A stretch of DNA of 64,000 nt from Escherichia coli (GTDB lineage Bacteria > Pseudomonadota > Gammaproteobacteria > Enterobacterales > Enterobacteriaceae): assembly GCF_002854065.1 (NCBI RefSeq), contig NZ_CP024147.1. One strand, given 5' to 3'. Under the pieces are notes generated by a model. That model was not told where the DNA came from, did no database searches, and was given only the letters and a program-made list of their open reading frames with translations. Positions 6,421-61,817 of the stretch are shown piece by piece. Position numbers and translations under genes: made by a program. The stretch's first letter is position 1. Each line of letters begins with the position of its first letter.

Positions 6421-6744
6421 TCGTTTTTCCTTAAACAAGGAATGCAGCCGTTCAGATTAGCCCTTACATCTCCCCAAAACTGAACGTGCGAGTTATTGGA
6501 ATCGAGTGCTGCACTCCACACCAGAGCTTTGACGACACCACTCGTTTCAATGGGGGAATTCAGTGGCATGGTGTAAAGCACAGCAAAATTGCCAATAACG
6601 AAACCGATTTTAATGTACTTATCAAAAAGCGGTCACGTTAATCTTTTCATCAATGTCGATTTCTTCGTAAAGGCTCGCGTTTTTTATGTCAGAGATTGCA
6701 AGTTGCTTGTACAGGTCAACGAAATTGATCCATAATCATTTTCG

Positions 6745-6818
6745 TTGGAATCGTGTGCTGCACAAAATTAAAGTTAAAAAGTAAAACCCCCGTTCCTTAC
6801 CAGTTCGGGGGTTTTACT
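6745..6818 (+). ncRNA. ohsC: Candidate OhsC antisense sRNA (antitoxin of shoB); boundaries approximate
   Basis: Putative promoter (-35 TTGTAC 6707-6712, 18-nt spacer, -10 CATAAT 6731-6736), a 19-nt segment (6745-6763) that directly repeats 6496-6514 in the shoB 5' region with one mismatch, and a rho-independent terminator hairpin (AAAACCCCCG...CGGGGGTTTT, 6784-6815). Boundaries inferred, not measured. Confidence 0.45.
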
Positions 6819-6841
6819 TTATAAAGAGAACGGTATTATTT

Positions 6842-8704: not shown

Positions 8705-10317
<1,613 letters not shown>

Positions 10318-10559
10318 TCAGCACACGAAACAGACCTGATATACATGGCTCTGCTAACTGCTTCGCTGCAGTTTCAGTTTAGCGGTATATGGGGACCAAC
10401 GCTGTTTCGTGTGCCGTGGCAACCTGGAGGTGCCAACCTTAAACTTCGGGGGAATATTCTATACACAACGACGGGGGATGTCGTTAGCCACGGGAGATTT
10501 ATCTCATAAATAATTCACGTTGTCGCCATAACGGCGACAACGTGAACGAAGATGAGCTA

Positions 10560-11549: not shown

Positions 11550-13349
<1,800 letters not shown>

Positions 13350-13546
13350 AAAGTATGATTATTGTGCCTTAATGCCCGGTTAACCAGGCTTTTAGAAGTC
13401 GCTGTTCTGAGCTTAACGTCTGTATTAATAGAAACGCCGCATTCTACACTACAACATTGAGGCGAGGAAATGTTCATACCGTATGGATTGTGGTATCTGG
13501 AAACGTCCTCGCATTTGTTATGCAAAATGCAACAAAGCCAGTGAAA

Positions 13547-14026
13547 TCACTGGCTCGCGTCTTCCGAAGATGTTTCAAATCGCACAAGGCCAGGCGGCAA
13601 TGCCACGCTTAAGATGATCGGTTGCCATTCTGCCCGGGCAGCAAACTTACGCGAGTAGCCACGCGCAATCAGGAACCCGCCAATACCGCCGAGGACCGCA
13701 CCACATAATGCTGCGACGTCAGAAGCAAAGAGTAGCTGAAATAGCGAAGCGATGAGGAATAATCCCACCAGCGGCGACATATAAACCAGTAATGCGGAGC
13801 TAAGCAGGCTGCCTTCGGCGATCCCCAATTCCACTTTTTGCCCCGGCACTAACGGCTCATCACAGGGTACGACAATGGTATGCGTGGTTTGCGGGCCAAG
13901 TTTATTCAACACGCGGCTACCGCAACCGGCGCGTGAAGCGCAGCTGCTGCATGAGGCTTTAACATCACAACTGACCAGCGCCTGCCCGTTTTGCCAGGAG
14001 ACGACGGTAGCCCACTCTTTGATCAT
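13547..14026 (-). CDS. rseC: Sigma-E regulatory protein RseC
   Basis: 159-aa ORF MIKEWATVVSWQNGQALVSCDVKASCSSCASRAGCGSR... Confidence 0.93.
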   Translation of the reverse strand: MIKEWATVVSWQNGQALVSCDVKASCSSCASRAGCGSRVLNKLGPQTTHTIVVPCDEPLVPGQKVELGIAEGSLLSSALLVYMSPLVGLFLIASLFQLLFASDVAALCGAVLGGIGGFLIARGYSRKFAARAEWQPIILSVALPPGLVRFETSSEDASQ

Positions 14027-14979
14027 TGCGCTGCCCCGAACTTAATATTCTCGGCAATGCGTTTCGCCGTTTGCGGCGGCAGTTCACCGACAATGGTGAT
14101 TTCGGCGTTATCACGTACGCTTGTACTGACGGTTCTGCGTCCGGTGCGCAACATCTGATCGGTGCTCGATGGCGTAGCGCGGTTAACGTTTACCGAGAAG
14201 CTGAATAATCCGTCGGAATAGAGACGTGATTCGATAGGCATGTTGTCCATCGTCGGTAGCGGACGTCGACTACTGGAAACTTCGCTAAAACCCTGTGGCA
14301 ACCAGGTTGGCGTCCAGCTGAATTTAGCTTTTTCACCTACAGGAACAGAAAGCAACGGCGGCAAATTTGCCTTCGCCAGCGTCTGCATACTGCTGCTGAT
14401 ATCCTGATTGACGTTAAAAGCAATCACGCGAAATTGTTCCAGCGTTTCACCATCGCGATCAAGAAGATCAACCCGCATCGGTAATTTCGATTCGGTGTCC
14501 ATCCACACGATGTAGCTGTAGCGTGTACCATCTCGGGCAACCACGCGAATGACTTCGCAAAGACGATCAGCAATACGCGTGCGCCCGACGGAGATAAAGT
14601 CGTAGTAAGGAGAAAGGCGTTTGAAATCGGTATAGATGAGCGATGGCAGAGAATCAACAATGTAATCGCCATTAAGCGTGAACGGTTCAAGTCCCGGTTC
14701 AAAATAGCTGATTTCATTGCCGCGCTGTACCACTTCCCGGCGCGGGCCATCCATTTGCAACAATTGTGCAAGAGGACGGTTATCGAGGCGTGCATGTCGA
14801 TAACGCAGAGACTCAACACCCTGTTTATTGATGCTGATGAATGACAGCTCGTAATTCAGTGACTGACTGGCCAGGTTCATCTGCTGTAATAACGCCCCGG
14901 ACGCGGGAGTGGCCGAGGCGTTAGCAGAGAATAACAGGCTACCTGTCACTAATGACATGGCAAACCAAAGTTGCTTCAT
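14023..14979 (-). CDS. rseB: Sigma-E regulatory protein RseB (periplasmic)
   Basis: 318-aa ORF with signal peptide MKQLWFAMSLVTGSLLFSANASA; 4-nt overlap with rseC. Confidence 0.95.
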   Translation of the reverse strand: MKQLWFAMSLVTGSLLFSANASATPASGALLQQMNLASQSLNYELSFISINKQGVESLRYRHARLDNRPLAQLLQMDGPRREVVQRGNEISYFEPGLEPFTLNGDYIVDSLPSLIYTDFKRLSPYYDFISVGRTRIADRLCEVIRVVARDGTRYSYIVWMDTESKLPMRVDLLDRDGETLEQFRVIAFNVNQDISSSMQTLAKANLPPLLSVPVGEKAKFSWTPTWLPQGFSEVSSSRRPLPTMDNMPIESRLYSDGLFSFSVNVNRATPSSTDQMLRTGRRTVSTSVRDNAEITIVGELPPQTAKRIAENIKFGAAQ

Positions 14980-15629
14980 TACTGCGATTGCGTTCCTAAA
15001 GTTTGAATTCCTGGCACCTGTACAGCGGCTTGCTGGGTTTGCGCCTGCTCAAACTGAAGCTGTTCAGAGTGGAGTCGGCGTTGCAGTTCGTAATCCTGCA
15101 ACATTGCATTAATGCGACGACGCTGCTCCTGTACCTGCTGCTGTTGACCATTATTTGCGGTCGCTTCAGAAGGTACTCCCAGGCTAACCGGGCTGGCTTT
15201 ACCCATCATCGGCAGTGTATTAAATACCGGCGTTTCGGGCTGCTGGGACGTTTCAGATTGTCCATTATAGTGCTGGACGCCAACGATAACTGCAAGCGAT
15301 ACGCATGCGGCTACGCCCATTTGGGTAAGCTGTGCCGCCCACGGACGTACTTTCTGCCAGAATGGCATTTTCTGCCATTGATGCGGCGCAGGCTGGGCTT
15401 CCGGGATCAATGTCGCCGGTTGACGTACTGGCTCTTCTTCAATGGCGGCCATCACGCGTGAAGAGATATCGAAATGGAGCACCTCGGGAGTATCACCCCG
15501 CATTGAGTCACGGATTAAGTGATAGCTTTCCCAGGTTTTCTGCATTTCTGGGTTATGAGCCAGTTCGTTAAGCAGCTCACTATCCAGCGTTTCGCCATCC
15601 ATTAAAGCGGAAAGTTGTTCTTTCTGCAT
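14979..15629 (-). CDS. rseA: Anti-sigma-E factor RseA
   Basis: ORF 14979..15665 trimmed to MQKEQLSALMDGETLDSELL..., 216 aa; single TM segment. Confidence 0.93.
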   Translation of the reverse strand: MQKEQLSALMDGETLDSELLNELAHNPEMQKTWESYHLIRDSMRGDTPEVLHFDISSRVMAAIEEEPVRQPATLIPEAQPAPHQWQKMPFWQKVRPWAAQLTQMGVAACVSLAVIVGVQHYNGQSETSQQPETPVFNTLPMMGKASPVSLGVPSEATANNGQQQQVQEQRRRINAMLQDYELQRRLHSEQLQFEQAQTQQAAVQVPGIQTLGTQSQ

Positions 15630-15661
15630 GCCTAATACCCTTATCCAGTATCCCGCTATCG

Positions 15662-16237
15662 TCAACGCCTGATAAGCGGTTGAACTTTGTTATCAATAGC
15701 TTCCCTCGCTCGGAAGATACGTGAACGCACCGTACCTACCGGACAATCCATGATAGCGGCTATCTCTTCATAGCTCAGGCCATCCAGCTCCCGCAAGGTT
15801 ATTGCCATGCGTAAATCTTCCGGGAGGGACTCAATAGTTCGGAAAACTATCTGTCTCAGTTCTTCTGACAACATTAAGTTCTCAGGGTTCGAAATTTCTT
15901 TCAACGCGCCGCCACTTTCGAAGTTTTCAGCTTCAATGGCATCCACATCACTGGAAGGTGGACGACGCCCCTGAGCAACCAGGTAATTTTTCGCTGTATT
16001 TACAGCAATCCGATACAGCCATGTATAAAAAGCGCTATCTCCCCGGAACGAATCCAGCGCACGATAGGCTTTAATAAAAGCTTCTTGTACCACATCGGGA
16101 ACATCACCCGACGGCACATAGCGGGAAACCAGACTCGCCACTTTATGCTGATAGCGCACTACCAGTAAGTTAAAGGCTTTCTGATCTCCCTTCTGGACCC
16201 GTTCAACCAGGACCTGGTCCGTTAACTGCTCGCTCAT
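15662..16237 (-). CDS. rpoE: ECF RNA polymerase sigma factor sigma-E
   Basis: ORF 15662..16270 trimmed to MSEQLTDQVLVERVQKGDQKAFNLLV..., 191 aa. Confidence 0.95.
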   Translation of the reverse strand: MSEQLTDQVLVERVQKGDQKAFNLLVVRYQHKVASLVSRYVPSGDVPDVVQEAFIKAYRALDSFRGDSAFYTWLYRIAVNTAKNYLVAQGRRPPSSDVDAIEAENFESGGALKEISNPENLMLSEELRQIVFRTIESLPEDLRMAITLRELDGLSYEEIAAIMDCPVGTVRSRIFRAREAIDNKVQPLIRR

Positions 16238-16319
16238 CCGAGGTAAAGTCTCCCCAAACCAAATTTCCACGCGCTATCGAAACGCCACTCCATTAGCTGC
16301 AATTTGAGCAAGCAAAGGG

Positions 16320-16347
16320 TTAGAGTGTCTCGTTTTTGTAAAGTTCC
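16320..16347 (-). promoter_or_regulatory. Sigma-E-type promoter upstream of rpoE (GGAACTT-N16-TCTAA on minus strand)
   Basis: Minus-strand sequence GGAACTTtacaaaaacgagacacTCTAA matches the sigma-E consensus with 16-nt spacing. Confidence 0.5.
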
Positions 16348-16620
16348 GTAACGCATCTGTTTTTGTTTGTCATGCTGTAGACGGATCATTATCTATCATT
16401 ATAAGTCTACAGAATCTGAACATCGCATTATCTGTGTAGAAATGCCCATTTAACTGCCTGAAGAGTAACCCAACGGCCTTTTTATTTCACCACCTAATCC
16501 TCCACCAGCCAGTAACTTCTCTTTTTCTCGCCGCCCTGCGTCAGCGTGTTTAGCCACTGTAACAAATATTAAAATAGCAGGTGTTTATTCGCACAACATG
16601 ATGCTATGCTGACCAAACCG

Positions 16621-18989
<2,369 letters not shown>

Positions 18990-19120
18990 GAAAATAAAAC
19001 CTTGCAGGAAAAACGGCGATAGCACCGGGTGAGAACAATACCCGAGAAGCGATATCCATACAAACAGATGAAGATTGCAGCCGTAACGTCTATAATCAGC
19101 GCCCCACACAGAGGTAGAAC

Positions 19121-20455
19121 ATGACTGTAACGACTTTTTCCGAACTTGAACTCGACGAAAGCCTGCTGGAAGCCCTCCAGGATAAAGGTTTCACTCGCCC
19201 GACCGCCATTCAGGCTGCCGCCATTCCGCCTGCGCTCGATGGCCGTGATGTACTCGGTTCTGCGCCGACAGGCACCGGTAAAACGGCGGCGTATCTGCTG
19301 CCAGCGTTGCAGCACCTGCTCGATTTCCCGCGTAAGAAATCCGGTCCGCCGCGTATTTTGATCCTCACCCCAACTCGCGAGCTGGCGATGCAGGTGGCCG
19401 ATCATGCCCGCGAACTGGCGAAACATACGCATCTGGATATCGCCACCATCACCGGCGGCGTAGCCTATATGAACCACGCGGAAGTGTTCAGCGAAAATCA
19501 GGACATCGTGGTCGCCACGACCGGACGTCTGCTGCAATACATAAAAGAAGAGAACTTCGATTGCCGCGCGGTTGAAACGCTGATCCTCGACGAAGCAGAC
19601 CGTATGCTGGATATGGGCTTCGCTCAGGATATCGAACATATTGCTGGCGAAACGCGCTGGCGTAAACAGACCCTGCTCTTTTCGGCAACTCTGGAAGGCG
19701 ATGCGATTCAGGACTTTGCCGAGCGTCTGCTGGAAGATCCGGTGGAGGTTTCTGCCAATCCGTCCACCCGTGAGCGCAAAAAAATTCATCAGTGGTATTA
19801 CCGCGCCGATGACCTGGAACATAAAACCGCATTGCTGGTGCATCTGTTAAAACAGCCGGAAGCGACCCGCTCAATTGTGTTTGTGCGTAAGCGTGAGCGT
19901 GTGCATGAGCTGGCAAACTGGCTGCGCGAAGCGGGCATCAACAACTGCTATCTCGAAGGTGAGATGGTACAAGGCAAGCGTAACGAAGCGATCAAGCGTT
20001 TGACCGAAGGTCGCGTAAACGTACTGGTTGCAACCGATGTTGCCGCGCGCGGTATCGACATTCCTGACGTCAGCCACGTCTTTAACTTCGATATGCCGCG
20101 CAGTGGCGATACTTATTTGCACCGTATCGGACGTACCGCGCGCGCCGGTCGTAAAGGCACCGCAATTTCGCTGGTAGAAGCCCATGACCATCTGCTGCTG
20201 GGCAAAGTTGGTCGCTATATTGAAGAGCCAATTAAAGCTCGCGTGATTGATGAGTTACGCCCGAAAACGCGTGCGCCAAGCGAGAAGCAGACCGGCAAGC
20301 CATCGAAGAAAGTACTGGCAAAACGCGCCGAGAAGAAAAAAGCTAAAGAGAAAGAGAAGCCGCGGGTGAAAAAACGCCATCGCGATACCAAAAATATTGG
20401 TAAGCGCCGTAAACCGAGCGGAACGGGCGTGCCACCGCAAACGACAGAAGAGTAA
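19121..20455 (+). CDS. srmB: ATP-dependent RNA helicase SrmB (DEAD-box)
   Basis: 444-aa ORF with [15 protein letters not shown] and HRIGRTAR motifs; lysine-rich C-terminal tail. Confidence 0.96.
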
Positions 20456-20460
20456 TCTCA

Positions 20461-20490
20461 ATGCCGGGTTTAAGCCCGGCATTATTTTTA
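20461..20490 (+). terminator. Rho-independent terminator after srmB
   Basis: Hairpin ATGCCGGG-TTTAAG-CCCGGCAT followed by a T-rich run; the yfiE stop codon lies in the T-run. Confidence 0.6.
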
Positions 20491-21369
20491 TCCCGGCAAA
20501 AAACAATCTTCAACACACTGAATAAAAGTGTGCATCGCCGGGCTAACTGCTTTTCCGGCATGGTGAGCGCACATTGCCGTAATGGTCTGCGAGTGTTCGC
20601 CAAAAGGCAATTCAATTAATTCTCCGCTCTCAAGCTCTTTTTCCACCGCAAAGCGGGGCAAGTAACTGACACCGATATTCGCCGCGACACAACGTTTGAT
20701 ACTTTCAATGCTTAACAGCTCAATGGTGTTTTCCACCGTGATCCGCCGCTGGCGCAGCGTGCTCTCAAATATCTGCCGGAATACACATTGCGGTTCGTTG
20801 ATAATAAAGCTACAGGCGTTATGTCTTCCCGGCTCAGTAAAATCGACATCTGCAATTTGCGGTGAAGCTACCAGCACCAGCGATTGCTCACCCAATTCTC
20901 GTCGGTTCAGGGCATCATCATTCCCTACGCGATAAAAAACCCCGACATCGGCCTCATCATTCAGTAGCGCATCACGGATCACGTAACAGTTCAGAGACTG
21001 CAACGATAAACGCACTTTTGGGGCGCGTTGCCGAAAACGCTGCAACACCTGCGGCATTCGGTAAGAGAGCAACGTTTCGCCCGAAACAACGCGTAGTTCC
21101 CCGTCCGGATCCGACTCCTTTTTGGCAGCCTCACGAAGGGTATCCATCACTCTGGTGAGTTCATAAATGTGCGGCAGCAGCTTTTTACCTTCGCGAGTGA
21201 GGCACATCCGTCGGCCAATTTTCTCAAATAACTGTACCGAGAACTCCTGCTCAAGCTGCTGAATATGAAAAGTCACCGTCGATTGTGTACAGCACAATTT
21301 TTGCGAAGCTCGCAAAAAGGAACCCTCTTCCACCACGGTTTTAAGCGTAATAAAACGGCGCAGATCCAT
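20488..21369 (-). CDS. yfiE: LysR-family transcriptional regulator
   Basis: ORF 20488..21414 trimmed to MDLRRFITLKTVVEEGSFLRASQKL..., 293 aa; LysR HTH and substrate-binding domain. Confidence 0.85.
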   Translation of the reverse strand: MDLRRFITLKTVVEEGSFLRASQKLCCTQSTVTFHIQQLEQEFSVQLFEKIGRRMCLTREGKKLLPHIYELTRVMDTLREAAKKESDPDGELRVVSGETLLSYRMPQVLQRFRQRAPKVRLSLQSLNCYVIRDALLNDEADVGVFYRVGNDDALNRRELGEQSLVLVASPQIADVDFTEPGRHNACSFIINEPQCVFRQIFESTLRQRRITVENTIELLSIESIKRCVAANIGVSYLPRFAVEKELESGELIELPFGEHSQTITAMCAHHAGKAVSPAMHTFIQCVEDCFLPG

Positions 21370-21471
21370 AACCCCAAACCTATCGAAAATATCGAATTTA
21401 GAATGTAAAAACATTCATTTTTTAAAATGTTCCGTGTCGGGTACTGTCTACCAAAACAGAGGAGATAACAA

Positions 21472-22059
21472 GTGACACCGACCCTTTTAAGTGCTTTTTG
21501 GACTTACACCCTGATTACCGCCATGACGCCAGGACCGAACAATATTCTCGCCCTTAGCTCAGCCACAACGCACGGATTTCGTCAGAGTACCCGCGTGCTG
21601 GCAGGGATGAGTCTGGGATTTTTAATCGTCATGTTGCTGTGTGCGGGCATTTCGTTTTCACTGACTGTTATCGACCCGGCAGCAGTGCATCTGTTGAGTT
21701 GGGCAGGAGCGGCATATATTGTCTGGCTGGCGTGGAAAATCGCTACCAGTCCAACAAAGGAAGACGGGCTTCAGACAAAACCAATCAGTTTTTGGGCCAG
21801 CTTTGCTTTGCAGTTTGTGAACGTCAAAATCATTTTGTACGGTGTTACGGCACTGTCGACATTTGTTCTGCCGCAAACACAGGCGTTAAGCTGGATAGTT
21901 GGCGTCAGCGTTTTGCTGGCAATGATTGGGACGTTTGGCAATGTGTGCTGGGCGCTGGCGGGGCATCTATTTCAGCGATTGTTTCGCCAGTATGGTCGCC
22001 AGTTAAATATCGTGCTGGCGCTGCTGCTGATCTATTGCGCGGTACGCATTTTCTATTAA
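21472..22059 (+). CDS. eamB: Cysteine/O-acetylserine efflux protein (LysE/RhtB family)
   Basis: 195-aa ORF, GTG start, multi-TM protein MTPTLLSAFWTYTLITAMTPGPNN... Confidence 0.9.
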   Translation: MTPTLLSAFWTYTLITAMTPGPNNILALSSATTHGFRQSTRVLAGMSLGFLIVMLLCAGISFSLTVIDPAAVHLLSWAGAAYIVWLAWKIATSPTKEDGLQTKPISFWASFALQFVNVKIILYGVTALSTFVLPQTQALSWIVGVSVLLAMIGTFGNVCWALAGHLFQRLFRQYGRQLNIVLALLLIYCAVRIFY

Positions 22060-22061
22060 TG

Positions 22062-22092
22062 AAAAAAAGCGGAAGAGGTCGCCCTCTTCCGC
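22062..22092 (-). terminator. Terminator hairpin between eamB and grcA (functional mainly for grcA)
   Basis: GCGGAAGAGG-TCGC-CCTCTTCCGC 10-bp stem; the A7 run on the plus strand gives a U-tract on the minus-strand transcript. Confidence 0.6.
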
Positions 22093-22114
22093 TTAGTAAC
22101 TTGCTACTTAAGCC

Positions 22115-22498
22115 TTACAGGCTTTCAGTAAAGGTACGAGCGATAACGTCGCGCTGCTGTTCCGGAGTCAGAGAGTTAAAGCGAACTGCATAACCGGATA
22201 CACGGATGGTCAGCTGCGGATATTTTTCCGGATGCTTAACTGCATCTTCCAGAGTTTCACGACGCAGAACGTTAACGTTCAGGTGCTGACCACCTTCAAC
22301 GCGAACTTCTGGTTTCACTTCTACTGGAACTTCACGGTACTCAATGTCACCCAGTTTGCTTACTGCAACCACTTCGTCTTCTGCAAAACCTGCTTTCGCA
22401 ACGATGCAACGTGCTTCGCCTTTTTCGCTGTCCAGCAGCCAGAAAGAGTTCAGCAGATCGTCGTTAGCGGCTTTAGTAATCTGGATACCTGTAATCAT
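22115..22498 (-). CDS. grcA: Autonomous glycyl radical cofactor (stress-induced PFL spare part)
   Basis: ORF 22115..22516 trimmed to [22 protein letters not shown]..., 127 aa; C-terminal glycyl-radical motif RVSGYAV. Confidence 0.93.
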
Positions 22499-22605
22499 GT
22501 GATGCCTCCCCGGCAAAATTATTTGATTTGTTCAGCCTGTCGCGGCCAATTGGTAAAACCATTGTTGCTTGAGTGTATATATACTCCTCAAACACCCTTG
22601 ATTCT

Positions 22606-22619
22606 TTGATTTAAATCAA
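22606..22619 (+). promoter_or_regulatory. FNR box (TTGAT-N4-ATCAA) in grcA promoter; second weaker site at 22659-22672
   Basis: Perfect consensus TTGATttaaATCAA; a second site TTGTTttacATCAA lies 53 bp further upstream, consistent with the tandem FNR-site architecture described for yfiD/grcA. Confidence 0.6.
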
Positions 22620-22802
22620 TAAAAACCACACATCAATTGTGGTCGCAAATGGATTTTATTGTTTTACATCAACTTATGCGGGTGTGAAATTTTACCAATT
22701 TACATTTTTTTGCACTCGTTTAAGTCTAAAAAATGAGCATGATTTTGTTCTGTAGAAAGAAGCAGTTAAGCTAGGCGGATTGAAGATTCGCAGGAGAGCG
22801 AG

Positions 22803-23492
22803 ATGGCTAACGAATTAACCTGGCATGACGTGCTGGCTGAAGAGAAGCAGCAACCCTATTTTCTTAATACCCTTCAGACCGTCGCCAGCGAGCGGCAGTC
22901 CGGCGTCACTATCTATCCACCACAAAAAGATGTCTTTAACGCGTTCCGCTTTACCGAGTTGGGTGACGTTAAAGTGGTGATTCTCGGCCAGGATCCTTAT
23001 CACGGACCGGGACAGGCGCATGGGCTGGCATTTTCCGTTCGCCCCGGAATCGCCACTCCTCCGTCACTGCTGAATATGTATAAAGAGCTGGAAAATACTA
23101 TTCCGGGCTTCACCCGCCCTAATCATGGTTATCTTGAAAGCTGGGCGCGTCAGGGCGTTCTGCTACTCAATACTGTGTTGACGGTACGCGCAGGTCAGGC
23201 GCATTCCCACGCCAGCCTCGGCTGGGAAACCTTCACCGATAAAGTGATCAGCCTGATTAACCAGCATCGCGAAGGCGTGGTGTTTTTGTTGTGGGGATCG
23301 CATGCGCAAAAGAAAGGGGCGATTATAGATAAGCAACGCCATCACGTACTGAAAGCACCGCATCCGTCACCGCTTTCTGCGCATCGTGGATTCTTTGGCT
23401 GTAACCATTTTGTGCTGGCAAATCAGTGGCTGGAACAACATGGCGAGACGCCGATTGACTGGATGCCAGTATTACCGGCAGAGAGTGAGTAA
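22803..23492 (+). CDS. ung: Uracil-DNA glycosylase
   Basis: 229-aa ORF with GQDPYH active-site motif. Confidence 0.97.
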
Positions 23493-32118: not shown

Positions 32119-32238
32119 ATGCCTGGCAGTTCCCTACTCTCGCATGGGGAGACCCCACACTACCATCGGCGCTACGGCGTTTCACTTCTGAGTTCGGCAT
32201 GGGGTCAGGTGGGACCACCGCGCTACGGCCGCCAGGCA
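32119..32238 (-). rRNA. rrfG: 5S ribosomal RNA
   Basis: 120-nt reverse-complement match to E. coli 5S rRNA (TGCCTGGCGGC...GGAACTGCCAGGCAT). Confidence 0.95.
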
Positions 32239-32330
32239 AATTCTGTTTTATCAGACCGCTTCTGCGTTCTGATTTAATCTGTATCAGGCTGAAAATCTTC
32301 TCTCATCCGCCAAAACAGCTTCGGCGTTGT

Positions 32331-35233
<2,903 letters not shown>

Positions 35234-35426
35234 TCACAACCCGAAGATGTTTCTTGCGACTCATCATCGTGTTGCGAAAATTTGAGAGACTCACGAACAA
35301 CTTTCGTTGTTCAGTGTTTCAATTTTCAGCTTGATCCAGATTTTTAAAGAGCAAATATCTCAAACATCACCCGAAGATGAGTTTTGAGATATTAAGGTCG
35401 GCGACTTTCACTCACAAACCAGCAAG

Positions 35427-35502
35427 TGGCGTCCCCTAGGGGATTCGAACCCCTGTTACCGCCGTGAAAGGGCGGTGTCCTGGGCCTCTAGACGAAGGGG
35501 AC
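35427..35502 (-). tRNA. gltW: tRNA-Glu (spacer tRNA of the rrn operon)
   Basis: 76-nt reverse-complement match to GTCCCCTTCGTCTAGAGGCCCAGGACACCGCCCTTTCACGGCGGTAACAGGGGTTCGAATCCCCTAGGGGACGCCA. Confidence 0.95.
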
Positions 35503-35587
35503 GTATCAGTCTGCTTCGCAAGACGCCTTGCTTTTCACTTTCTATCAGACAATCTGTGTGAGCACTGCAAAGAACGCTTCTTTAAGG

Positions 35588-37129
<1,542 letters not shown>

Positions 37130-37572: not shown

Positions 37573-40146
37573 TTACTGGACGGCGACAATCCGGTCTTCA
37601 TTAACTTCCAGGCGAATCACTTTACCCGGAACCAATTCACCAGACAGTATTTGCTGTGCCAACGGGTTTTCGATCTGCTGCTGGATAGCACGTTTCAAAG
37701 GACGTGCACCATAGACTGGATCGTAACCGTTCTCGCTCAGCAGTTTCAGCGCCTCGTCAGAAATGTGGATTTCATAACCACGTTCTTCCAGACGTTTGTA
37801 CAGACGTTTCAACTGAATCTGCGCAATCGAGGCAATGTGCTGTTCGCCCAGCGGATGGAAGACCACCACTTCATCGATACGGTTAATGAACTCCGGACGG
37901 AAGTTATGGCTTACCACACCGAGCACCAGTTCTTTCATATGCGCATAATCCAGTTCACCGAAGCGTTCCTGAATCAAATCGGAACCGAGGTTAGAGGTCA
38001 TAATGACAACCGTATTACGGAAGTCGACCGTTCTCCCCTGCCCGTCAGTCAGACGCCCATCATCCAGTACCTGCAACAGAATGTTGAAGACATCCGGATG
38101 CGCTTTTTCCACTTCATCCAGCAGGATAACGGAATACGGACGACGACGCACAGCTTCGGTCAGGTAGCCACCTTCTTCATAACCAACATATCCCGGAGGC
38201 GCACCAACCAGACGAGACACCGAGTGTTTCTCCATAAACTCGGACATATCGATACGGACCATCGCCTCGTCGCTATCAAACATAAAGTTCGCCAGCGCCT
38301 TACAAAGCTCAGTTTTCCCCACACCAGTTGGGCCGAGGAACAGGAATGAACCAATCGGGCGATTTGGATCCGCCAGCCCCGCACGGCTACGACGAATAGC
38401 GTTAGATACCGCATCAACCGCTTCGTTCTGACCAATAACGCGATGGTGCAGTTCTTGCTCCATACGCAGCAGTTTTTCGCGCTCGCTTTCCATCATGCGA
38501 GAAACCGGAATCCCCGTCCAACGCGCCAGCACTTCAGCAATTTCGGCGTCGGTCACTTTATTACGCAACAGACGCATAGTTTTGCCTTCGAGCTGCGTTG
38601 CGGCTTCCAGTTGCTTTTCCAGCTCCGGGATTTTGCCGTATTGCAGTTCAGACATCCGCGCCAGGTCACCCACACGGCGAGCCTGTTCAATAGCGATTTT
38701 CGCCTGTTCCAGTTCCGCTTTAATGGTCTGCGTACCAGAAAGCGATGCTTTCTCTGCTTTCCACTCTTCTTCTAACTCGGAGTACTGACGTTCTTTGTCG
38801 CTCAGTTCTTCGTTGAGCATATCCAGACGTTTTTTACTGGCTTCATCAGACTCTTTCATTAACGCCTGTTGTTCCAGTTTGAGCTGGATGATACGGCGAT
38901 CGAGTCGGTCGAGTTCTTCTGGTTTTGAGTCAATCTGCATACGAATGCTGGATGCTGCTTCATCGATCAGGTCGATGGCTTTATCCGGCAGCTGACGGTC
39001 AGCAATGTAGCGATGAGACAACGTCGCCGCTGCAACAATTGCCGGGTCAGTAATTTGCACATGGTGGTGCAATTCGTAACGTTCTTTCAGGCCACGTAGA
39101 ATCGCAATGGTATCTTCAACAGAAGGCTCGGCAACAAACACTTTCTGGAAACGACGTTCCAGCGCAGCATCTTTTTCGATGTACTGGCGATATTCGTCAA
39201 GCGTCGTGGCACCTACGCAGTGCAATTCACCACGCGCCAGCGCCGGTTTCAGCATGTTTCCGGCGTCCATTGCGCCATCGGCTTTACCCGCGCCGACCAT
39301 GGTATGTAATTCGTCGATAAACAGGATGACGTTGCCTTCCTGTTTGGCAAGATCGTTAAGCACGCCTTTTAAACGTTCTTCAAACTCACCGCGATATTTC
39401 GCCCCAGCCACCAGCGCGCCCATATCCAGCGCCAGTACGCGGCGGCCTTTCAACCCTTCCGGCACTTCGCCGTTGATAATACGCTGCGCCAGACCTTCAA
39501 CGATGGCAGTTTTACCGACGCCGGGTTCACCAATCAGTACCGGATTATTTTTAGTACGACGTTGCAGCACCTGAATGGTACGGCGAATTTCTTCATCACG
39601 ACCAATCACCGGATCGAGTTTGCCCTGTTCGGCTCGTTCGGTAAGGTCGATGGTATATTTTTTCAAAGCCTGACGTTGGTCTTCAGCACCTTGATCGTTC
39701 ACGCTTTCACCTCCACGCATTTGTTCAATCGCTTGAGTAATGTTGGCGGTGGTCGCCCCTGCTGCTTTCAGGATGTCGGCCAGCGTGCCGCGAGACTCAA
39801 GTGCCGCCAGAACGAACAGTTCTGACGAGATAAAGTTATCACCACGTTTTTGCGCCAGCTTGTCGCAAAGATTAAGAACGCGCACCAGATCCTGTGATGG
39901 CTGGACATCACCACCAGTACCTTCAACCTGCGGTAAACGATTTAATGCCTGATTGATATCTGTGCGCAACTGGCCAGCATTTATGCCAGCTGATGTTAAC
40001 AAAGGACTAACCGAACCCCCTTCCTGATTCAGCAGGGCGCTCATTAAATGAAGTGGTTCGATGAATTGGTTGTCGTGCCCGAGTGCAAGTGATTGGGCAT
40101 CGGCAAGAGCAAGCTGGAATTTATTAGTAAGACGATCCAGACGCAT
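37573..40146 (-). CDS. clpB: Chaperone ClpB (AAA+ disaggregase)
   Basis: ORF 37573..40158 trimmed to [27 protein letters not shown]..., 857 aa; two Walker A sites ([16 protein letters not shown]). In-frame GTG at 39700-39702 (Val149) corresponds to the known internal start for the short ClpB isoform. Confidence 0.96.
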
Positions 40147-40182
40147 AACTCCTCCCATAACGGATCAAAGTTGCTACTGGAG

Positions 40183-40214
40183 ATTAAATGAGGTCATCCC
40201 TCAATTATTCAAGG
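40183..40214 (-). promoter_or_regulatory. Sigma-32 heat-shock promoter of clpB (CTTGAA ... CCTCATTTA)
   Basis: Minus-strand CCTTGAATaattgagggatgaCCTCATTTA approximates the sigma-32 consensus (CTTGAAA / CCCCATnT). Confidence 0.5.
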
Positions 40215-40275
40215 TTATTGACCAGATTAATGTGAAAAGAAAATCACACGTACCGGATCGTCTTGATTCTTTAGG

Positions 40276-41984: not shown

Positions 41985-42118
41985 ATATACTGCTTCTTCG
42001 TTTATCGTTGGGGTTTTACGGCTTTGCCGTTTAATATAGTGTGCTATTGTAGCTGGTCTTAACCGGGAGCAGGAACAGAGAATCTCCCGTATTACATTTT
42101 GAGGAAAGTCAAAACGTC

Positions 42119-43516: not shown

Positions 43517-43571
43517 TTGACAGCGTGAAAACAGTACGGGTACTGTACTAAAGTCACTTAAGGAAACAAAC

Positions 43572-43619
43572 ATGAAACACACACCGTTTTTCTTCGCATT
43601 CTTTTTTACCTTCCCCTGA
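43572..43619 (+). CDS. pheL: pheA leader peptide (Phe-rich attenuation peptide)
   Basis: ATG AAA CAC ACA CCG TTT TTC TTC GCA TTC TTT TTT ACC TTC CCC TGA = MKHTPFFFAFFFTFP*, 7 Phe in 15 codons. Confidence 0.85.
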   Translation: MKHTPFFFAFFFTFP

Positions 43620-43665
43620 ATGGGAGGCGTTTCGTCGTGTGAAACAGAATGCGAAGACGAACAAT

Positions 43666-43698
43666 AAGGCCTCCCAAATCGGGGGGCCTTTTTTATTG
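43666..43698 (+). terminator. pheA attenuator terminator
   Basis: AAGGCCTCCC-AAATC-GGGGGGCCTT hairpin followed by T-run, 20 nt upstream of the pheA start. Confidence 0.8.
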
Positions 43699-61454: not shown

Positions 61455-61817
61455 GGGGCTGATTCTGGATTCGACGGGATTTGCGAAACCCAAGGTGCAT
61501 GCCGAGGGGCGGTTGGCCTCGTAAAAAGCCGCAAAAAATAGTCGCAAACGACGAAAACTACGCTTTAGCAGCTTAATAACCTGCTTAGAGCCCTCTCTCC
61601 CTAGCCTCCGCTCTTAGGACGGGGATCAAGAGAGGTCAAACCCAAAAGAGATCGCGTGGAAGCCCTGCCTGGGGTTGAAGCGTTAAAACTTAATCAGGCT
61701 AGTTTGTTAGTGGCGTGTCCGTCCGCAGCTGGCAAGCGAATGTAAAGACTGACTAAGCATGTAGTACCGAGGATGTAGGAATTTCGGACGCGGGTTCAAC
61801 TCCCGCCAGCTCCACCA
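61455..61817 (+). ncRNA. ssrA: tmRNA (SsrA), 363 nt
   Basis: Starts GGGGCTGATTCTGGATTCGACGGG, contains tag reading frame GCAAACGACGAAAACTACGCTTTAGCAGCTTAA (ANDENYALAA*), ends with tRNA-like ...GGTTCAACTCCCGCCAGCTCCACCA. Confidence 0.97.

What the first reader, a model, noticed from the sequence alone, without database searches (positions are those of the whole stretch)
22560..22680. Tandem FNR sites in the grcA (yfiD) promoter, one a perfect consensus
TTGATttaaATCAA (22606-22619) is a perfect FNR/CRP-class palindrome; a second site TTGTTttacATCAA (22659-22672) lies exactly 53 bp further upstream. This matches the described activating (-40.5) and modulating (-93.5) FNR-site architecture of this anaerobic/acid-stress gene. 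It is a known feature, reported because it is directly readable from the sequence.
Basis: partly seen in the sequence, partly recalled or inferred. Interest (0 to 1): 0.15.

Follow-up and report, generated by a model that had tools for sequence, protein, structure and literature searches.

The report
Known tandem FNR sites, grcA promoter
These are the two well-studied binding sites for the oxygen sensor FNR in front of the E. coli grcA (yfiD) gene: a perfect one that switches the gene on and a weaker one 53 bp upstream that damps it.

Summary
The observation and the interpretation are both confirmed. TTGATTTAAATCAA (22606-22619) and TTGTTTTACATCAA (22659-22672) lie 53 bp apart in the 304-bp gap between grcA (minus strand, 22115-22498) and ung (plus strand, from 22803). 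The window is E. coli.

- **Chance:** with an FNR weight matrix built from 61 published ChIP-positive sites (these two excluded), they are the two best 14-mers in the 64 kb. No shuffle of 200 matched the better site or produced such a pair.
- **Published data:** Myers et al. [quoted passage not shown]
- **Transcription start:** coordinates in Park et al. 2013 place it at window 22572, so the site centres fall at -40.5 and -93.5. A sigma-70 ChIP-seq peak maps 1 bp away.

Beyond the finding, 61 of 65 Enterobacterales species keep two sites 52-53 bp apart, all but one with the weaker site upstream. The upstream site is never a perfect consensus, the -10 block sits exactly 22 bp after the proximal site, and a PdhR-type box at +17 is widely conserved. 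Novelty: already known. Interest: low.

The parts
22606..22619 (-). FNR I: perfect consensus TTGATTTAAATCAA, centred at -40.5; the activating (class II) site
   Evidence: rank 1 in window, 21.0 bits. Myers Table S6 gives PatSer 17.25, the highest of the 187 sites listed, ChIP-seq positive. TTGA/TCAA invariant in 25 species.
22659..22672 (-). FNR II: TTGATGTAAAACAA on the gene strand, centred at -93.5; weaker site that lowers expression when occupied
   Evidence: rank 2, 15.8 bits. Myers Table S6 gives PatSer 13.87. Repressing role. Found 52-53 bp upstream of the stronger site in 60 of 65 Enterobacterales, with A rather than T at position 11 in 88%.
22578..22583 (-). -10 element TATATA (-11 to -6 with the published TSS); no -35 match, as expected for a class II activator-dependent promoter
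   Evidence: TATA invariant in 25 species and always 22 bp after FNR I. The consensus scanner finds no complete sigma-70 promoter.
22572..22572 (-). grcA transcription start (from published coordinates); 74-nt 5' UTR
   Evidence: Derived from Park 2013 (site 2714524-2714555 = -10/+22) and sequence matching to the window. Sigma-70 ChIP-seq peak at 2714546 = window 22573.
22549..22563 (.). PdhR-type operator ATTGGTAAAACCATT, centred at +17; probable roadblock for the pyruvate-responsive repressor PdhR
   Evidence: The only match with 1 mismatch or fewer in the window (expected 0.13). It resembles the pdhR operator AATTGGTCTTACCAATT. A box at +17/+18 occurs in 49 of 64 Enterobacterales promoters. 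PdhR repression of yfiD is stated. The assignment of this exact box is my inference.
22551..22582 (+). Predicted ArcA direct-repeat site (-10 to +22), low-scoring repeats
   Evidence: Park et al. 2013 supplementary tables; ArcA ChIP peaks at 2714537 and 2714570 = window 22564 and 22597.
22505..22509 (-). Shine-Dalgarno GGAGG, 6 nt before the ATG
   Evidence: GGAG invariant in 25 species.
22115..22498 (-). grcA (yfiD) coding sequence, 127 aa plus stop
22067..22094 (-). Terminator-like hairpin followed by a T run, immediately downstream of the grcA stop codon
   Evidence: 12-pair stem, 7 G-C pairs, then TTTTT.

Best explanation
This is the E. coli grcA (yfiD) promoter with its two FNR operators.

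When oxygen falls, FNR acquires its iron-sulfur cluster, dimerises and binds the perfect site centred at -40.5. That site overlaps the -35 position, so FNR recruits RNA polymerase directly (class II activation) to a promoter that has a TATATA -10 but no usable -35. As active FNR rises further, a second dimer fills the weaker site at -93.5. This site lies five helical turns upstream on the same face of the DNA, and its occupation lowers transcription.

The outcome is highest expression at low but non-zero oxygen. That suits GrcA's role as a spare glycyl-radical domain that repairs oxygen-damaged pyruvate formate-lyase. A PdhR-type operator at +17 adds repression that pyruvate relieves, and ArcA also binds the region.

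Shown here: the sites, their spacing, their statistical standing, and their conservation. Taken from the literature: binding in vivo, the TSS, activation by one site and damping by the other. Inferred: that the conserved imperfection of the upstream site is what sets the oxygen threshold, and that the +17 box is the PdhR operator.
For: - **Sequence and position:**
- **Statistics:**
- **Identity of locus:**
- **In vivo binding and PWM:** Myers 2013 Table 1 and Tables S5/S6 show an FNR ChIP-seq peak at 2714605-7 (window about 22632-22634, between the two sites). Both 14-mers are listed, with -40.5, and yfiD is FNR-activated in their expression data.
- **TSS:**; sigma-70 peak 1 bp from it.
- **Upstream site represses:**. 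An upstream FNR site represses strongly only between -85 and -95. Wild-type promoter is more active microaerobically than anaerobically.
- **Phylogenetic footprint:** 60 of 65 Enterobacterales have the weaker site 53 bp (54 species) or 52 bp (6 species) upstream of the stronger one, and one more (Mixta) has the same 53-bp pair with the stronger site upstream. The spacer between the sites is only 57% conserved in sequence while both sites are 93% conserved. The upstream site is never perfect in both halves. FNR I to TATA is 22 bp in 25 of 25 species.
- **Within E. coli:** even a 94%-identical allele keeps both sites, the -10 and the +17 box unchanged.
- **PdhR/ArcA:**
Against: - The primary experimental papers could not be read, so the mechanism rests on secondary statements. 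[quoted passage not shown]
- The TSS coordinate in Park 2013 and the -40.5 in Myers 2013 probably both descend from the same primer-extension experiment, so they are not independent of each other. Only the sigma-70 ChIP peak is independent, and its resolution is tens of bp.
- The base at 22572 on the transcribed strand is T, an uncommon start, and it puts the TATATA at -11 to -6. The true start could be 1-2 bp further downstream.
- Park 2013 scored ArcA's effect on yfiD as negative where earlier work reported positive, so the ArcA part is unsettled.
Confidence: 0.95

Rival explanations
1. The upstream site is a second activating site, so the two dimers cooperate to raise transcription, as tandem CRP sites do at some promoters.
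For: Both sites lie on the same helical face (53 bp is about 5 turns). The pair is conserved, which shows function but not its sign. An added upstream FNR site still permits induction at many positions in a model promoter.
Against: Published statements say occupation of -93.5 lowers yfiD expression. The repressive window -85 to -95 includes -93.5. Destroying or deleting FNR II gave stronger anaerobic output than wild type.
Confidence: 0.03
2. One or both sites serve the divergent ung gene, or are CRP rather than FNR targets.
For: The sites lie in a shared divergent intergenic region, and Myers lists the peak as 'yfiD/ung'. FNR and CRP recognise related palindromes.
Against: Both sites have TTGA...TCAA with FNR spacing rather than the TGTGA-N6-TCACA of CRP (from established knowledge). 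The fixed 22-bp distance from FNR I to the grcA -10 in 25 of 25 species ties the sites to grcA. FNR II is 137 bp from the ung start codon, and ung was not flagged as FNR-regulated in the passages retrieved from Myers' tables (I searched for yfiD, not for ung).
Confidence: 0.02

Closest known systems
E. coli K-12 yfiD (grcA) promoter with FNR sites at -40.5 and -93.5 (Green et al. 1998; Marshall et al. 2001)
   Same: Both 14-mers, their 53-bp spacing, the -10, the TSS region and the +17 box are base-for-base identical to K-12 MG1655.
   Different: Three substitutions outside the sites: two in the spacer between the sites (CACAATTG versus K-12 CATACTTG) and one just downstream of FNR I (AGAATC versus AGATTC). 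Only 33 of 5425 E. coli genomes are at least 99% identical to this allele over 161 bp. No functional consequence is shown.
Standard class II FNR promoters (for example narG, nirB, dmsA, with the site at -41.5)
   Same: One FNR dimer overlaps the -35 position, with a recognisable -10 and no -35 hexamer.
   Different: The site is at -40.5 rather than -41.5, and there is a second, upstream, damping FNR site. One secondary source describes two such sites as otherwise seen only in FNR-repressed promoters.
Synthetic tandem-FNR promoters (Barnard, Green & Busby 2003, as summarised in PMC11264516)
   Same: An upstream FNR site between -85 and -95 represses a downstream class II FNR promoter. The natural site at -93.5 falls in that window.
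   Different: Those are engineered melR-derived promoters. The grcA promoter is the natural case and carries additional PdhR and ArcA inputs.

Membership tests
FNR binding site | Match to TTGAT-N4-ATCAA or to the FNR weight matrix, above chance | tested here: met
   Perfect match and a 1-mismatch match. Ranks 1 and 2 in 64 kb, with no shuffle equalling FNR I. Both pass the published genome-wide threshold.
FNR binding site | FNR occupancy in vivo or in vitro | not testable with these tools
   Taken from the literature: ChIP-seq peak between the two sites in K-12, whose sequence is identical at the sites. ChIP cannot resolve the two sites. The footprints cited to Green 1998 were not readable here.
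Class II FNR-activated promoter | Site centred near -41.5 relative to a mapped TSS, with a -10 element about 22 bp downstream of the site | tested here: met
   Centre at -40.5 from TSS 22572 using published coordinates. TATATA lies 22 bp after the site in 25 of 25 species. The TSS itself is from the literature, not measured here.
yfiD-type tandem FNR architecture (activating plus damping site) | Second FNR site about 53 bp upstream (-93.5), on the same helical face and within the -85 to -95 repressive window | tested here: met
   53 bp spacing. 52-53 bp spacing in 61 of 65 Enterobacterales. Repressive window.
yfiD-type tandem FNR architecture (activating plus damping site) | Upstream site lowers expression when occupied | not testable with these tools
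   Literature only. The conserved imperfection of the site is consistent with this but does not prove the sign of the effect.
PdhR operator | Match to the ATTGGT-N3-ACCAAT palindrome in a position able to block transcription | tested here: met
   1 mismatch, unique in the window, expected 0.13. Centred at +17 and conserved in 49 of 64 species. The consensus is recalled from memory and checked only against the pdhR operator probe. Binding was not tested.

The most novel reading that the evidence does not exclude
The whole control module is an order-wide, length-constrained unit across Enterobacterales. It consists of a strong FNR site, a deliberately imperfect FNR site 52-53 bp upstream, a -10 exactly 22 bp downstream, and a PdhR box at +17. 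In this reading selection maintains the defect in the upstream site (A instead of T at position 11 in 88% of species, never a perfect site) to set the oxygen level at which expression turns down. Pasteurellaceae would then use a re-spaced version (42-44 bp between sites) with a different element, a TTGA-N5-TCAA palindrome, next to the -10. I did not find this conservation pattern described in the papers I could read, but I cannot exclude that it is in the unread primary papers or in regulon databases.
Probability: 0.5. Interest if true: 0.2.

Novelty: already known. Interest (0 to 1): 0.08.

Why it matters
It matters little as a discovery, because this is a textbook example of a promoter tuned to low oxygen by two copies of one regulator's site. 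It is useful as a positive control: the first-stage reader read a real, experimentally characterised regulatory architecture correctly from raw sequence, with exact coordinates. The cross-species comparison adds modest value. It shows that spacing and the weakness of the upstream site are conserved while the intervening sequence is free to change, which supports the affinity-threshold model and gives natural variants for promoter engineering.

Tried and rejected
- **Hairpin between the sites.** The scanner flagged a terminator-like hairpin plus T run on the grcA strand at 22624-22644. Folding gives -9.7 kcal/mol, z = -1.74, with 12 of 200 shuffles as good. The stem is lost in E. albertii. I rejected it as a structured element. 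The T run looks like an AT-rich flank of FNR I.
- **Primary papers.** Green 1998, Wyborn 2002, Ogasawara 2007 and Barnard 2003 are not held.
- **Independent genome-wide TSS.** The Kim 2012 supplement was cut before this locus, and text searches under 'grcA' gave nothing useful.
- **Wasted search.** A search on '93.5'/'40.5' returned mostly unrelated papers.
- **Upstream PdhR-like arm.** The arm of the 11-bp inverted repeat at -118 to -128 is restricted to Escherichia (3 loci). It is not part of the conserved module.
- **Rfam.** No RNA family matches in the intergenic region.

Full report
**What is in the sequence.** The window around 22000-23400 carries grcA on the minus strand and ung on the plus strand.
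- grcA: CDS 22115-22498, 127 aa, with the sequence of E. coli GrcA/YfiD.
- ung: from 22803.
- The intergenic gap is 304 bp.

On the grcA strand the second reads TTGATGTAAAACAA, so its promoter-proximal half is the imperfect one.

**Is it more than chance?**
- The perfect consensus occurs once in the window (expected 0.14; 11 of 100 shuffles have at least one).
- Sites with up to one mismatch occur seven times against 2.9 expected. Consensus matching alone is therefore weak evidence.
- I built a symmetrised weight matrix from the 61 ChIP-seq-positive predicted FNR sites in Myers et al. 2013 Table S6, leaving out the two yfiD entries.
- With this matrix the two sites are the best and second-best 14-mers of the whole 64 kb, at 21.0 and 15.8 bits (maximum possible 21.7).
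- None of 200 dinucleotide-preserving shuffles had a site as good as the first. The expected number as good as the second was 0.195. None had two such sites within 100 bp.

**Identity of the locus.** An 801-bp stretch matches 5425 of 5426 complete E. coli genomes, annotated eamB, grcA and ung. Against K-12 MG1655 the 341-bp promoter region differs at three bases, none inside an FNR site, the -10, or the 5' UTR.

**Published evidence for the K-12 sequence.**
- Myers et al. 2013 (PMC3688515) list yfiD among operons directly activated by FNR, with a site at -40.5.
- Their Table S6 lists TTGATTTAAATCAA (PatSer 17.25, the highest of all 187 sites listed) and TTGTTTTACATCAA (13.87), 53 bp apart. [quoted passage not shown]
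- The sequence of an ArcA site in Park et al. 2013 (PMC3798270) fixes the offset between their coordinates and the window at 2691973.
- With that offset the FNR peak summit (2714605-2714607) falls at window 22632-22634, between the two sites.
- A sigma-70 ChIP-seq peak (2714546) falls at 22573.

Park et al. give their ArcA site as 2714524-2714555 and as -10/+22 relative to the start. This puts +1 at 2714545, window 22572.
- The site centres at 22612.5 and 22665.5 are then -40.5 and -93.5, the positions in the title of Green et al. 1998 and in Myers' table.
- The test does not refute.
- Two cautions apply. These published numbers probably share one experimental origin. The base at 22572 is T and puts the conserved TATATA at -11 to -6, so the true start may be a base or two further downstream.

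**How it works, from the literature I could read.**
- The upstream site downregulates even when the activating site is occupied.
- In a model promoter an upstream FNR site represses strongly only between -85 and -95, and the mechanism is said to be unknown.
- Destroying or deleting FNR II gives a stronger anaerobic promoter, and the wild type is more active microaerobically than anaerobically (Metab Eng 2023).
- PdhR represses and ArcA modulates the promoter.
- Park et al. score ArcA's effect as negative where earlier work reported positive.

**New here: a phylogenetic footprint.** A scan of one genome per species returned 80 grcA loci, 65 Enterobacterales and 15 Pasteurellaceae. The same matrix gave these results.
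- 60 of 65 Enterobacterales have a second site 53 bp (54 species) or 52 bp (6 species) upstream of the best site. One more (Mixta) has the pair with the stronger site upstream. The four without a partner are three Pantoea and a Plesiomonas.
- In a 25-genus alignment both FNR sites are 93% conserved per column and the -10 is 95% conserved. The 38-39 bp spacer between the sites is only 57% conserved.
- Spacing is therefore constrained while the intervening sequence is not.
- The distance from FNR I to TATA is 22 bp in 25 of 25 species.
- The upstream site is imperfect in every one of the 60 species where it is the weaker partner. Position 11 is A in 88% of species, against T in 100% of proximal sites. 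This fits selection for lower affinity.
- Within E. coli, an allele only 94% identical still keeps both sites, the -10 and the 5' UTR box unchanged, and its substitutions fall in the spacers.

**Other parts of the module.**
- ATTGGTAAAACCATT at 22549-22563, centred at +17, is the only match with up to one mismatch to the PdhR-type palindrome in the window (expected 0.13).
- It resembles the pdhR operator probe AATTGGTCTTACCAATT.
- A box with up to two mismatches at +17/+18 is present in 49 of 64 Enterobacterales promoters.
- I infer that this is the PdhR operator, acting as a roadblock just downstream of the start. The consensus is from memory and binding was not tested.

**Rejected.** The terminator-like hairpin between the sites is not significant. 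No Rfam family matches in the gap.

**Verdict.** The feature is already known, so interest is low. The conservation analysis is a small addition.

Noticed in passing
window 22549-22563: PdhR-type palindrome ATTGGTAAAACCATT centred at +17 of the grcA transcript. It is unique in the window and conserved at +17/+18 in 49 of 64 Enterobacterales grcA promoters.
   Followed up: partly
window 22548-22558 and 22690-22700: A perfect 11-bp inverted repeat AATTGGTAAAA / TTTTACCAATT brackets the whole promoter (about +15..+25 and -118..-128). Each arm carries a PdhR-type half-site. The upstream arm is found only in Escherichia loci. It could be a second, lineage-specific PdhR contact or part of the ung promoter.
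   Followed up: partly
window 22606-22628 and 22650-22672: Each FNR site plus its inner AT-rich flank forms a 23-nt, 87% complementary inverted repeat, so the 67-bp region is one large imperfect palindrome. Myers Table S6 reports IHF enrichment here. Significance unknown.
   Followed up: no
window 22540-22700: The promoter allele in this window is uncommon. Only 33 of 5425 E. coli genomes are at least 99% identical over 161 bp, and most carry the K-12-like version with 3 differences, all outside the functional blocks.
   Followed up: partly
window about 20460-22700: Compared with K-12, the window lacks about 176 bp in the srmB-yfiE intergenic region. Identity to K-12 drops from 98.6% (14625-20484) to 95.5% (20460-22700, covering yfiE-eamB-grcA), which suggests a different allele block here.
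   Followed up: partly
loci L043-L073 (Pasteurellaceae), about 90-140 bp upstream of grcA: 8 of 15 Pasteurellaceae have two FNR-like sites 42-44 bp apart instead of 53. Most also have a conserved TTGA-N5-TCAA palindrome abutting an extended -10 (TGATAAAAT). If TAAAAT is the -10, the FNR sites sit near -48.5 and -92.5, a different layout from E. coli.
   Followed up: partly
window 42099-42112, 14828-14841, 90-103: Other FNR-like 14-mers: TTGAGGAAAGTCAA at 14.2 bits between rluD and bamD, and sites inside rseB and purL. All three appear in Myers Table S6 as ChIP-negative 'silent' sites.
   Followed up: yes
window 6744-6820, 10233-10447, 13231-14062, 32121-37129, 40127-40265, 43571-43696, 61455-61817: Rfam and ARAGORN hits elsewhere in the window: ohsC sRNA, rncO, AsrC antisense RNA, an rRNA operon with tRNA-Glu and StyR-44, RyfD, the Phe leader, and tmRNA. 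All are expected for this E. coli region.
   Followed up: no
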